Source: Minisyncoccota bacterium (GTDB lineage Bacteria > Patescibacteriota > Minisyncoccia > Phycocordibacterales > UBA6065). From it: a stretch of DNA of 64,000 bases. Where the stretch lies: NCBI GenBank assembly GCA_035714745.1, contig DASTLR010000014.1, positions 30,861 to 94,860 of the forward strand, in the 5' to 3' direction. This document shows, piece by piece, positions 62,522-64,000 of the stretch. Made by a program: the position numbers and the translations under genes. The notes below the pieces were generated by a model that saw nothing but the letters and a program-made list of their open reading frames with translations, was not told where the DNA came from and did no database searches. Numbering within the stretch: the first letter of the stretch is position 1; the number at the start of each line of letters is the position of its first letter.

Positions 62522-64000
62522 ATGAAAGAGTACAATCACTCAGAAATAGAGAAGAAGTGGCAGAAGGAGTGGGAGAAGAAGGAGATATACAAGACTCAGG
62601 ATCCGGCAAAATCCAAGAATCCGAAGCCCAAGTTCTACATCCTCGACATGTTCCCGTACCCTTCGGGCGAAGGGCTCCACGTCGGCCATCCAAAGGGCTA
62701 TATCGCCACGGACGTCGTCTCCCGTATGAAGAGGATGCAGGGCTTTAACGTGCTCCATCCGATGGGTTTCGACGCCTTTGGCCTGCCCGCCGAGAACTAC
62801 GCTATCAAGACCAAGACGAATCCCATGGATTCGGTAGCCAAGAACGTCGCCCGTTATAAAAAGCAATTGGAGATCCTGGGCTTCGACTACGACTGGTCGC
62901 GCGAAGTCAACACTACCGACCCCAAGTTCTATACATGGACCCAGTGGATATTTTTGAAGCTCCTGGAGAAGGGACTGGCTTATGAGTCCTTTGAGCCGAT
63001 CAATTGGTGCCCGTCATGCAAGACTGGTCTGGCGAATGAGGACGTCGAGGACGGCAAGTGCGAGCGCTGCGGCACGCCTGTAGAGAAGAAGCCGATGAGG
63101 CAGTGGGTCTTGCGCATCACCGACTATGCTGACCGTCTGCTCGCCGATCTGGACAAGCTCGATTGGCCGGAGTCGATCAAGGAGTCTCAGAGGAATTGGA
63201 TCGGACGCTCGGAAGGCGCTGAGCTCTCCTTTGACATCTCTGCTGCCTGCTTCAGGGACAAGAAGAGCGTGACCGTCTTTACTACTCGTCCGGATACGCT
63301 CTTTGGCGTGACCTACGTCGTGCTCGCTCCTGAGCATGGGCTTGTCACGGAGCTCTTGAAGCACAAAGAGAATCTCAAGAACCACGCCGAAGTCGTGAAG
63401 TACGTCGCGCACGCCCGCGTCATGACCCAGATCGAGCGCACCGACGCGAAAAAGGACAAGACCGGCGTCAGGCTTGAGGGCGTGACGGCCACGAATCCGG
63501 CCAATGGCGAAAAAGTGCCCGTTTATGTCGCCGACTATGTCCTTGCCGAATACGGGACCGGCGCCGTCATGGCAGTGCCTGCGCATGATGAGCGGGATTT
63601 TGCTTTCGCTAAAAAGTTCAATTTGCCGATCAGGCGGGTCGTCGAGCCCAAATTCATCGGCACCATGGGGGACGGGGCGGCAAAGCCTGGTCTTCCTTTT
63701 ATCAGGCGAGAAGCCGTATGCGCCATCGTCAGGAATCCAAAGAACGGCACCTATCTCTGCAATAGCTGGAAGGGTTTTCGTATGAACGGCCTCTTTACCG
63801 GCGGCATTGAGCCAGGGGAAGATTTGGTCGAGGGCGCCAAGAGGGAAGTCCGGGAAGAGACCGGCTACAAGAATCTAAAACATGTCAGGACCTCTGATCT
63901 CGCCATCAACACTTATTTCTATCACCGTGTAAAGAAGCAGAATAGGCACGCTCACTTCAAGTTCGTCTTCTTCGACCTTATGGACGACGAGCGCGCGCCC
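62522..64000 (+). CDS. leuS: leucyl-tRNA synthetase, 5' part (runs off window end) carrying an in-frame Nudix box
   Basis: HVGHPKGY (HIGH), [23 protein letters not shown] conserved LeuS motifs. About 35 codons later, [23 protein letters not shown] is a perfect GX5EX7REUXEEXGU Nudix signature in the same frame. No stop through 64000. Confidence 0.9.

What the first reader, a model, noticed from the sequence alone, without database searches (positions are those of the whole stretch)
62522..64000. Perfect Nudix box embedded in-frame within leucyl-tRNA synthetase after the AHDERD motif
The LeuS frame runs without a stop from 62522 to the window end. About 35 codons after the conserved [23 protein letters not shown], it encodes [17 protein letters not shown]...[27 protein letters not shown], a textbook GX5EX7REUXEEXGU Nudix hydrolase signature with a preceding beta-strand. 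This lies where bacterial LeuS normally has its leucyl-specific insertion. I am not aware of a Nudix module in LeuS.
Basis: seen in the sequence. Interest (0 to 1): 0.7.

Follow-up and report, generated by a model that had tools for sequence, protein, structure and literature searches.

The report
Nudix hydrolase domain inside leucyl-tRNA synthetase
The leucyl-tRNA synthetase gene at the end of this window really does carry a complete Nudix hydrolase domain spliced in-frame into its proofreading domain. The same Nudix family turns up inside or next to tRNA synthetase genes in hundreds of ultra-small bacteria and a few ultra-small archaea, which points to an undescribed synthetase-coupled activity.

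Summary
**Observation:** confirmed. Window 62522-64000 (+) is one open frame of 493 codons. It encodes the N-terminal half of a bacterial LeuRS, then a canonical Nudix box at residues 427-449 (Pfam PF00293, E 1.3e-11).

**Insertion, not fusion.** In relatives, LeuRS resumes after a module of about 155 aa. The closest genome relative, L049 (82% identical), is an intact 969-aa LeuRS.

**Location.** The site is a loop of the CP1 editing domain, about 17 residues after AHDERD (T. thermophilus E363).

**A discrete Nudix family:**
- 174 clusters at E<=1e-30, and at least 398 species genomes, those listed almost all Patescibacteria by record title.
- It occupies at least four LeuRS sites, with up to three copies per protein.
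- It also sits inside ProRS of DPANN-type archaea.
- It occurs as a free gene 1-2 nt upstream of leuS, or just upstream of proS.

**Conservation.** The three Nudix-box glutamates are conserved. Against L049, non-synonymous divergence of the module (pN 0.086) matches the catalytic core (0.077), while synonymous sites are saturated.

**Function.** Inferred only: an active pyrophosphohydrolase coupled to the synthetase, most plausibly clearing Ap4A-type by-products. No literature was found on this architecture.

The parts
62522..64000 (+). 5' part of leuS (493 codons, open at the window end). About 475 more codons are expected beyond the window.
   Evidence: no stop. TIGR00396 leuS_bact matches residues 4-376 at 548 bits. 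82% identity over 492 aa to the intact 969-aa L049 protein, which has an Anticodon_1 domain.
62678..62689 (+). HIGH signature (HVGH) of the class I aminoacylation site
   Evidence: Invariant in alignment A3.
63191..63652 (+). CP1 editing domain, first three quarters (Pfam PF13603 profile positions 1-143 of 185)
   Evidence: The editing residues TTRPDT (63281-63298) and AHDERD (63581-63598) are intact. They are invariant in both Nudix-bearing and Nudix-less relatives.
63650..64000 (+). Nudix module inserted in the CP1 loop (residues 377-493). The window end cuts off its last ~40 residues.
   Evidence: Pfam NUDIX 395-489. The boundary follows from comparison with Nudix-less P0003 and P0005 and with P0001 and P0002. 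The T. thermophilus alignment stops at residue 375 = E363. The module of P0001, 68% identical to this one, gives a confident Nudix fold.
63800..63868 (+). Nudix box [23 protein letters not shown] (GX5EX7REUXEEXGU)
   Evidence: E of RE, the first E of EE, and both G are invariant in 26 diverse modules; the second E is at least 90% conserved. 66 of 87 modules in genome loci have the full canonical box.
60014..62515 (+). Conserved upstream neighbours: ychF GTPase (60014-61123) and a DUF5671 protein (61550-62515). These are context, not part of the enzyme.
   Evidence: The same YchF - DUF5671 - leuS order appears in L002 and on the contigs of P0137 and P0148. This shows the gene sits at the normal chromosomal leuS locus.

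Best explanation
**What it is (shown).** This is the housekeeping leucyl-tRNA synthetase of a Patescibacteria (Paceibacteria-type) bacterium. A complete Nudix hydrolase domain of about 155 residues is inserted in-frame in a loop of the CP1 editing domain, about 17 residues after the AHDERD editing motif. The LeuRS chain resumes afterwards.

**The module's family (shown).** The module is not a generic Nudix. It belongs to a discrete family whose members are nearly always inside or beside an aminoacyl-tRNA synthetase gene.
- There are four different insertion sites in LeuRS, with up to three copies per protein.
- There is one insertion site in ProRS of DPANN-type archaea.
- Free-standing genes of 160-190 aa lie 1-2 nt upstream of leuS or just upstream of proS.

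**How it works (inferred).**
- The module is a catalytically active Mg-dependent pyrophosphohydrolase that works together with the synthetase.
- My preferred substrate class is the adenylate-derived dinucleoside polyphosphates (Ap4A, Ap3A, Ap4N) that synthetases make when ATP or another nucleotide attacks the enzyme-bound aminoacyl-adenylate. The module would hydrolyse them back to usable mononucleotides at the place where they arise.
- That would be valuable in cells that cannot make purines de novo.
- I put about 0.35 on this substrate assignment. I put about 0.9 or more on 'genuine, selected, synthetase-coupled Nudix insertion'.
For: **Insertion and intactness**
- LeuRS resumes after the module.
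- About 45 of the 82 loci held (80 from the genome scan plus L001 and L002) carry uncut stop-to-stop frames of about 935-1000 codons with the KMSKS motif and the module; the HIGH pattern matched in most of them.
- L049 has Rossmann + CP1 + NUDIX + Anticodon_1.
- The editing and HIGH residues are invariant.

**Discrete family**
- A profile of the module finds 174 representative clusters at E<=1e-30, 521 at 1e-10 and 9256 at 1e-3.
- 398 species-representative genomes were hit with a single peptide pattern.

**Host restriction**
- The 164 modules found in the 150 best representatives plus four earlier hits map to LeuRS sites at roughly P0003 positions 210 (13 modules), 238 (3), 370 (100) and 480 (5).
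- About 30 are free-standing by size, though some of these are gene fragments. One is in ProRS.
- Five ProRS-Nudix proteins sit in a clade of Nano/Woesearchaeota ProRS.

**Gene neighbourhood**
- P0137 lies 1 nt upstream of leuS.
- P0148 lies 2 nt upstream of a Nudix-less leuS on 3 contigs.
- P0140 lies 2.4 kb upstream of leuS.
- P0174 lies 0.7 kb upstream of a Nudix-bearing proS.

**Selection**
- Window against L049: pN is 0.086 in the Nudix, 0.077 in the Rossmann core and 0.187 in CP1. Synonymous sites are saturated.
- The catalytic Glu residues are conserved.
- Tandem copies are old positional orthologs at 53-67% identity, not recent duplicates.

**Fold and neighbours**
- pLDDT is 94.7.
- The best PDB profile hits are AvrM14, then 2azw, then lupin Ap4A hydrolase.
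- The weak best NCBIfam hits are mostly RppH/NudH.
- The modules are acidic on average, net charge -4.8. That fits a small-molecule substrate better than an RNA substrate.

**From established knowledge**
- aaRSs are the main cellular source of Ap4A.
- Patescibacteria and DPANN largely lack de novo nucleotide synthesis.
Against: - No substrate-specific motif or subfamily threshold is met. RppH models score about 25-40 bits against cut-offs of 116 and above, so the substrate is a guess.
- To my knowledge, LeuRS and ProRS are not the strongest Ap4A producers among synthetases. The hypothesis does not explain why these two are the hosts.
- One hydrolase copy should be enough for by-product clearance, yet some LeuRSs carry three copies plus a free-standing one.
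- The same LeuRS loops also host unrelated hydrolases: Ser_hydrolase, HAD_2 and a DUF559 nuclease. LeuRS may therefore just be an insertion-tolerant scaffold.
- Sizeable subgroups have a degenerate box, with RE changed to AE, KE or ME and the GX5E glutamate changed to Q or M.
- I could not read model coordinates. The distance from the Nudix metal site to the synthetic site, the editing site and the tRNA path is unknown.
Confidence: 0.55

Rival explanations
1. **Hitch-hiking or selfish domain cassette.** The Nudix is a general house-cleaning enzyme, or a neutral passenger, with no mechanistic link to aminoacylation. It persists because a few surface loops of LeuRS tolerate insertions and an essential gene guarantees expression. 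The cassette spreads by recombination or horizontal transfer.
For: - Pairwise identities of the module are almost uncorrelated with those of the host backbone. r is 0.14 against 0.82 for random backbone column sets of equal size. With contiguous blocks, r is at most 0.19 against 0.75 between the two Rossmann halves.
- P0002 has an 82% identical backbone but a 39% identical module. The closest backbones, P0003-P0005 (83-86%), have no module.
- The same loops carry Ser_hydrolase, HAD_2 and DUF559 inserts.
- There are up to three copies per protein.
- The family occurs in both bacteria and archaea.
Against: - The host range is extremely narrow. Among the 150 best representatives the only hosts are LeuRS and ProRS.
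- Free-standing copies are operon-linked to leuS or proS in 4 of 8 cases examined.
- Purifying selection is as strong as on the catalytic core.
- Modules cluster by insertion site, which implies few, old insertion events.
- None was found on viral contigs.
- There are no intein-like junctions.
- The locus set was chosen by module similarity, which may deflate the correlations.
Confidence: 0.2
2. **RNA-end hydrolase acting on the bound tRNA.** The module removes a 5' pyrophosphate, an Np4/NAD/ADP-ribose-type cap, or a 3' pyrophosphate from tRNA while the acceptor end is held by the synthetase. It would act as a repair or maturation step.
For: - The best PDB sequence-profile hit is the mRNA-decapping effector AvrM14. 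Dcp2, DIPP and RppH are also among the hits.
- The weak best NCBIfam hits are mostly RppH.
- The insertion is in the domain that handles the tRNA acceptor end.
- A tRNA-directed role would explain association with two unrelated synthetases.
Against: - The modules are acidic on average, net charge -4.8, unlike typical RNA-binding Nudix enzymes.
- All subfamily scores are far below cut-off.
- The other insertion sites, and the ProRS site between the anticodon-binding and C-terminal domains, are not obviously near the acceptor end.
- I know of no such tRNA modification in these organisms.
Confidence: 0.12
3. **Extra proofreading step.** The module hydrolyses released non-cognate aminoacyl-adenylates (pre-transfer editing) or a similar reactive adenylate. 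It would complement CP1 in LeuRS and substitute for the missing INS domain in archaeal-type ProRS.
For: - Both hosts are synthetases with known misactivation problems (established knowledge).
- The free-standing versus inserted pattern mirrors trans-editing factors such as YbaK/INS and AlaX.
- The module co-occurs with a serine-hydrolase insert in CP1.
Against: - To my knowledge, acyl-adenylates are not documented Nudix substrates. HINT-type enzymes do that job.
- The CP1 hydrolytic site is fully intact in Nudix-bearing LeuRSs, so there is no obvious gap to fill.
Confidence: 0.08
4. **Non-catalytic nucleotide-binding or structural module.** It would be a sensor for an alarmone, or a dimerisation handle that recruits the free-standing paralog.
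For: - Subgroups have a degenerate box: AE, KE or ME for RE, and Q or M for the GX5E glutamate.
- Inserted and free-standing paralogs coexist at one locus, and old tandem pairs exist. That would suit dimer formation.
Against: - The window copy has a perfect box, as do 66 of 87 surveyed modules.
- The three metal-binding glutamates are invariant or nearly so across the family.
Confidence: 0.05

Closest known systems
Bacterial leucyl-tRNA synthetase with its CP1 editing domain (T. thermophilus 1H3N/2BYT, E. coli 4AQ7/4ARC)
   Same: - The N-terminal 375 residues align end to end (E 8e-127).
- HIGH, the T-rich motif and the AHDxRD editing Asp are present.
- The ortholog has KMSKS and the anticodon-binding domain.
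   Different: - A Nudix domain of about 155 aa replaces the short variable loop after T. thermophilus E363.
- Relatives carry further Nudix, Ser_hydrolase, HAD or DUF559 inserts at three other sites.
Small Nudix hydrolases of the ApnA / polyphosphate / RNA-cap group (T. thermophilus Ndx1, M. tuberculosis Rv2985, DIPP1, RppH/NudH, AvrM14) and the uncharacterised E. faecalis 2azw
   Same: - Canonical Nudix box and alpha/beta/alpha fold.
- Profile E is 1e-9 to 1e-7.
   Different: - Only 14-22% identity.
- Every curated subfamily model scores far below its cut-off.
- The family has its own conserved positions outside the box: W40, K95, N98, E122 and W130 in P0001-insert numbering.
- It is embedded in a synthetase.
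Editing modules that exist both inside synthetases and as free-standing proteins (ProRS INS / YbaK / ProXp, AlaRS editing domain / AlaX)
   Same: The evolutionary pattern is the same. One hydrolase family is found inserted in a synthetase, free-standing, and genomically linked to it.
   Different: - The fold and chemistry differ: Nudix pyrophosphohydrolase rather than aminoacyl-ester hydrolase.
- No editing role has been shown.
Synthetases carrying an accessory enzyme domain, e.g. NCBIfam NF040702 'isoleucine--tRNA ligase, N-acetyltransferase domain-containing'
   Same: A class Ia synthetase has acquired an unrelated small-molecule enzyme domain. That model appeared among the hits.
   Different: - The accessory domain is different.
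- Here it is inserted inside CP1 and recurs at several sites and in two synthetases.

Membership tests
Bacterial-type leucyl-tRNA synthetase (class Ia) | HIGH signature in the Rossmann fold | tested here: met
   HVGH at residues 53-56. Invariant in A3.
Bacterial-type leucyl-tRNA synthetase (class Ia) | CP1 editing domain with the T-rich motif and the conserved Asp of AHDxRD | tested here: met
   PF13603 at E 8e-57. TTRPDT at 254-259 and AHDERD at 354-359.
Bacterial-type leucyl-tRNA synthetase (class Ia) | KMSKS loop and C-terminal anticodon-binding domain | not testable with these tools
   These lie beyond the window end. They are present in the 82%-identical ortholog L049 and in most related loci.
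Bacterial-type leucyl-tRNA synthetase (class Ia) | NCBIfam equivalog TIGR00396 score at or above the cut-off | tested here: inconclusive
   548.0 bits against a cut-off of 548.4, with only the N-terminal 376 residues available.
Nudix hydrolase superfamily (PF00293) | Nudix box GX5EX7REUXEEXGU | tested here: met
   Exact match at residues 427-449. Pfam 45.1 bits against a cut-off of 21.1.
Nudix hydrolase superfamily (PF00293) | alpha/beta/alpha sandwich Nudix fold | tested here: met
Nudix hydrolase superfamily (PF00293) | Divalent-cation-dependent hydrolysis of a nucleoside diphosphate-X substrate | not testable with these tools
   Only inferred from conserved catalytic Glu residues and purifying selection.
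RppH / NudH (RNA pyrophosphohydrolase, ApnA hydrolase) | Score above the NCBIfam equivalog cut-offs (NF001934-NF001938) | tested here: not met
   Best scores are 19.6-39.8 bits against cut-offs of 116-259.
MutT 8-oxo-dGTPase | Score above the TIGR00586 / NF008044 cut-offs | tested here: not met
   13.6 bits against 97.9, and 16.3 against 148.
   The insert interrupts the editing-domain profile at position 143 of 185 and follows T. thermophilus E363. In relatives the YKLKDWVFSRQRYWGEP return to the core comes after the module.
Intein or other self-excising in-frame element | N-terminal Cys/Ser and C-terminal His-Asn followed by Cys/Ser/Thr at the junctions, plus Hint-fold blocks | tested here: not met
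   The junctions read VVEP|KFIG and ...DFAFV|DEGIL. The whole insert is accounted for by the Nudix fold.
Known anti-phage defence proteins (PADLOC) | Match to any PADLOC model | tested here: not met
   No hit for the module or for a free-standing member.

The most novel reading that the evidence does not exclude
This Nudix family is a previously unrecognised quality-control or metabolite-repair partner of aminoacyl-tRNA synthetases. It would destroy a synthetase-made nucleotide by-product (Ap4A or Np4 caps) or a reactive adenylate at its source. It would also behave as a transferable domain cassette that has been captured repeatedly, at different sites, by LeuRS in CPR bacteria and by ProRS in DPANN archaea. 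On this reading, ultra-small symbionts have added a new enzymatic layer to the translation apparatus.
Probability: 0.3. Interest if true: 0.85.

Novelty: new variant of a known kind. Interest (0 to 1): 0.66.

Why it matters
**Why the architecture is unusual.** Synthetases are among the most conserved enzymes known, and their accessory domains usually signal an added function such as editing, signalling or localisation. A Nudix pyrophosphohydrolase built into the editing domain of LeuRS has not been described in the literature I could search. Several features make it look selected rather than accidental:
- It is conserved in hundreds of Patescibacteria species.
- It recurs at four sites in LeuRS.
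- It is present in archaeal ProRS.
- It is operon-linked to the synthetase gene when free-standing.

**If the module acts on synthetase by-products or on tRNA ends**, it would:
- be a new kind of cis-acting clean-up or repair step in translation;
- give a biochemical handle on Ap4A/Np4N metabolism in organisms that lack the usual hydrolases;
- add to the list of peculiarities of CPR/DPANN translation machinery.

**If it is only a passenger**, it is still a clear natural example of repeated domain insertion into an essential enzyme. It also maps insertion-tolerant sites in LeuRS.

Tried and rejected
1. **Pseudogene or truncation worry.** None of the ~41 Nudix-bearing hits in the first protein search had an anticodon-binding domain.
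   - Those on long contigs ended early.
   - DNA inspection showed ordinary frameshifts in opposite directions. One is next to an A-rich repeat; the other looks like a small deletion.
   - Most others were contig-end truncations.
   - Genome loci then gave roughly 45 intact genes of about 950 aa, so I rejected this worry.
2. **Assembly chimera or mis-tracked frame.** Rejected on the continuous frame, similar GC and hundreds of independent occurrences.
3. **Intein or self-splicing element.** Rejected from the junction residues and the fold.
4. **Phage-borne cassette.** No relative was found on viral contigs.
5. **Defence-system Nudix.** No PADLOC hit.
6. **Locus search with the 26-sequence module alignment.** It failed because no stretch was conserved enough. 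It was redone with 8 closer sequences.
7. **First co-evolution test.** It used fixed-offset segments and was uninformative because extra insertions shifted the segments. It was replaced by MSA-column tests.
8. **Gene context of free-standing members L072 and L080.** It gave no clue. Other members did.
9. **Search of the full-length model against afdb50.** That library was not available.
10. **Model coordinates.** They are not exposed, so no distances between active sites could be measured.
11. **dN/dS.** It could not be computed as a ratio because synonymous sites are saturated. Only pN values are compared.
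Full report
**1. The observation**

Translating 62522-64000 on the + strand gives 493 codons with no stop. The frame runs off the window end. Motifs in the frame:
- HVGH at residues 53-56
- TTRPDT at 254-259
- [16 protein letters not shown] at 344-359
- REAVCAIV at 396-403
- [23 protein letters not shown] at 427-449 (nt 63800-63868), an exact GX5EX7REUXEEXGU Nudix box

Family matches:
- Pfam finds tRNA-synt_1 at 12-227 and the LeuRS editing domain at 224-377, covering profile positions 1-143 of 185. It finds NUDIX at 395-489 with E 1.3e-11.
- NCBIfam TIGR00396 (leuS_bact) matches residues 4-376 at 548.0 bits.
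- GC and GC3 of the Nudix stretch are close to those of the flanking LeuRS codons.

**2. Insertion, fusion or artefact?**

Six Nudix-bearing relatives were fetched: P0001, P0002, P0011, P0023, P0054 and P0058. In each, LeuRS resumes after about 155 residues with ...EGIL.NS..F.G....YKLKDWVFSRQRYWGEP....

The distance from the AHD motif to the WxFSRQR motif is about 220 residues in Nudix-bearing proteins and 43-117 in Nudix-less ones. So the module replaces a short variable loop.

At first, every Nudix-bearing hit looked truncated.
- DNA inspection of two long contigs showed simple frameshifts in opposite directions.
- Most others end at contig ends.

I then scanned species-representative genomes with the module alignment.
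- 398 loci were returned.
- About 45 of the 82 loci held (80 from this scan plus L001 and L002) carry uncut stop-to-stop frames of about 935-1000 codons with KMSKS and the module; the HIGH pattern matched in most of them.
- The closest is L049, 82% identical over all 492 aligned residues. It is a 969-aa protein with Rossmann, CP1, NUDIX and Anticodon_1 domains.

The window gene is therefore expected to run about 475 codons beyond position 64000.

The upstream order YchF - DUF5671 - leuS is shared with L002 and other contigs. This is the normal chromosomal leuS locus.

**3. Where the insertion sits**

The alignment to T. thermophilus LeuRS stops at window residue 375, which equals E363. That is inside CP1, about 17 residues after the editing Asp of AHDxRD.

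The T-rich motif, the HDxRD motif and HIGH are invariant in an alignment of 84 Nudix-bearing and Nudix-less relatives. The module is added to a complete editing site; it does not replace one.

**4. The module is a distinct Nudix family tied to synthetases**

Family size. A profile of 26 modules searched against 1.84 billion representatives finds:
- 174 clusters at E<=1e-30
- 521 at 1e-10
- 9256 at 1e-3

Insertion sites. The 164 modules found in the 150 best representatives plus four earlier hits map onto LeuRS as follows, in P0003 coordinates:

| Site (approx.) | Position in LeuRS | Modules |
|---|---|---|
| ~210 | before CP1, often as a tandem pair | 13 |
| ~238 | start of CP1 | 3 |
| ~370 | the window's site | 100 |
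| ~480 | after CP1 | 5 |

Copy number. Up to three copies occur in one protein: L058, L081, P0121 and P0122. Copies within a protein are only 30-45% identical to each other. Copies at the same position in different proteins are 53-67% identical. The paralogs are therefore old and retained.

Free-standing forms. About 30 representatives are free-standing proteins of 160-200 aa, although a few are gene fragments.

A second host. One representative, P0245, is a class II prolyl-tRNA synthetase with the module between its anticodon-binding and C-terminal domains. Four further ProRS-Nudix proteins exist. Their closest Nudix-less relatives with a source name are annotated Nanoarchaeota or Woesearchaeota.

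Other searches:
- Pfam scans of 20 ambiguous representatives showed no host other than LeuRS and ProRS.
- No relative was found on viral contigs.
- There was no match to defence-system models.

**5. Gene neighbourhood of the free-standing members**

- P0137 ends 1 nt before a 951-aa Nudix-bearing leuS.
- P0148 ends 2 nt before a leuS that lacks the insertion, on three contigs.
- P0140 lies 2.4 kb upstream of leuS.
- P0174 lies 0.7 kb upstream of a Nudix-bearing proS.
- Four others are not next to a synthetase: L072, L080, P0181 and P0209.

Four of eight is far above what a genome of roughly a thousand genes would give by chance. Together, fusion and conserved adjacency are the classic signature of a functional link.

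**6. Is it active and under selection?**

- In 26 diverse modules, the E of RE, the first E of EE and both G of the box are invariant, and the second E is at least 90% conserved. K95 is also invariant, and W40, N98, E122 and W130 are nearly so.
- 66 of 87 modules in genome loci have the full canonical box. That set was selected with the pattern EETGYKN.
- Subgroups show AE, KE or ME in place of RE, and Q or M in place of the GX5E glutamate.
- Between the window and L049, synonymous sites are saturated. Non-synonymous divergence is 0.086 in the Nudix part, 0.077 in the Rossmann core and 0.187 in CP1. The module is as constrained as the catalytic core.

**7. Fold and nearest relatives**

- The module of P0001 (68% identical to the window's) models at pLDDT 94.7 with the expected strand-helix-strand pattern.
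- A full-length relative, P0019, models at pLDDT 89.8 and pTM 0.83, with the module region at 95-98.
- A PDB sequence-profile search puts AvrM14 first, then 2azw and lupin Ap4A hydrolase.
- NCBIfam gives only weak hits, mostly to RppH models, all far below cut-off.

The module is not a member of any named subfamily. Its nearest neighbours include the ApnA / polyphosphate / RNA-cap group. Mean net charge of the modules is -4.8.

**8. Evolutionary behaviour**

- The closest LeuRS backbones to the window, P0003-P0005 (83-86% identical), have no module.
- P0002 has an 82% identical backbone but a 39% identical module.
- L004 has a 65% identical backbone but a 76% identical module.

In 43 full-length single-insert proteins I compared pairwise identities:
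- Two random backbone column sets of 151 columns correlate at r = 0.82.
- Backbone against module correlates at r = 0.14.

With contiguous blocks:
- The two Rossmann halves correlate at 0.75.
- CP1 against the core correlates at about 0.35.
- The module correlates at no more than 0.19 with anything.

This fits cassette exchange or repeated gain and loss. Lineage-specific rate shifts and the way the loci were chosen could also contribute, so I treat it as suggestive.

The same loops also hold Ser_hydrolase, HAD_2 and DUF559 inserts in some relatives.

**9. Mechanism**

Shown:
- a complete Nudix domain with intact catalytic residues;
- inserted in CP1 of an otherwise complete LeuRS;
- strongly constrained;
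- belonging to a family linked to synthetase genes by fusion and adjacency.

Inferred: it is an active pyrophosphohydrolase working with the synthetase.

My preferred substrates are the dinucleoside polyphosphates that synthetases produce from the enzyme-bound adenylate. The reasons are:
- synthetases are their main source (established knowledge);
- several of the nearest structural neighbours are ApnA or polyphosphate hydrolases;
- the module is acidic;
- these organisms depend on nucleotide salvage.

Weak points:
- There is no diagnostic motif.
- LeuRS and ProRS are not the classic strong producers.
- Several copies occur per protein.
- Unrelated hydrolases occupy the same loops.

The rivals are scored in the report sections:
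- a passenger cassette;
- a tRNA-end hydrolase;
- an aminoacyl-adenylate hydrolase;
- a non-catalytic module.

**10. Comparison and novelty**

The protein is a member of bacterial LeuRS and of the Nudix superfamily. It is not a member of RppH, MutT or any other curated subfamily tested.

The closest analogy in evolutionary pattern is the ProRS INS / YbaK and AlaRS / AlaX families. They also occur both inside synthetases and free-standing, but the chemistry is different.

Six full-text searches found no description of a Nudix domain in LeuRS or any synthetase. Public records simply call these proteins leucine--tRNA ligase or class I tRNA ligase family protein.

I rate it a new variant of a known kind: a synthetase with an accessory hydrolase domain. 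Interest is 0.66.

Noticed in passing
window 36000-38500: A 2.5-kb island of 31-39% GC lies in a ~61% GC genome. It is wedged between uvrB (33847-36105) and uvrA (38499-41147) and holds a HEPN-domain ORF at 36086-37003. It looks like a recently acquired insert, possibly a toxin-antitoxin or defence element.
   Followed up: partly
P0137 contig (no DNA held); L084 3451-3936, L085 492-977 and L086 639-1124; L087 4001-4549; L090 1533-2084: Free-standing members of the same Nudix family lie 1-2 nt upstream of leuS. In the P0148 contigs that leuS lacks the insertion. Other members lie 2.4 kb upstream of leuS or 0.7 kb upstream of a Nudix-bearing proS.
   Followed up: yes
L083 2906-4837 (P0245); P0267-P0270; L090 2762-4693: Archaeal-type prolyl-tRNA synthetases in a Nano/Woesearchaeota-like clade carry the same Nudix family between the anticodon-binding and C-terminal domains.
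   Followed up: partly
L058 3666-8342; L081 2190-7394; P0100; P0056: Some LeuRS genes are heavily decorated.
- L058: 1559 aa with three Nudix modules plus a Ser_hydrolase.
- L081: 1735 aa with three Nudix modules, an alpha/beta hydrolase and a HAD_2 domain.
- P0100: a DUF559 endonuclease-like insert.
- P0056: an alpha/beta hydrolase after CP1.
   Followed up: partly
L001 ~8090-8170; L002 ~8065-8075: Two Nudix-bearing leuS genes on long contigs are split by frameshifts close to the GGAEHATRHL region, in opposite directions (-1 and +1). They are probably assembly errors, but I did not explain why they fall so close together.
   Followed up: partly
L084 3939-5303 compared with L085 980-3217: Two contigs encode the identical upstream Nudix (P0148) and an identical LeuRS N-terminus. 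They then diverge sharply inside CP1. The L084 copy lacks a recognisable TTRPDT motif, which suggests strain-level mosaicism of the editing domain.
   Followed up: no
window 1-64000: The genome is unusually GC-rich (about 55-64%) for a Patescibacteria lineage, whereas the closest LeuRS relative L049 is 45.5% GC. The window also holds rpoB (17145-20324), rpoC (20364-24068) and two tRNA-Ala genes (51451-51524 on the - strand, 54742-54813 on the + strand).
   Followed up: no
L045 (record titled Candidatus Nanoarchaeia archaeon), plus several records titled Saccharibacteria, Gammaproteobacteria, Bdellovibrionales or Bacillota: LeuRS-Nudix loci appear in MAGs whose titles name unrelated taxa. This is most likely mis-binning or automatic mislabelling of Patescibacteria contigs. 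Transfer into other lineages was not excluded.
   Followed up: no
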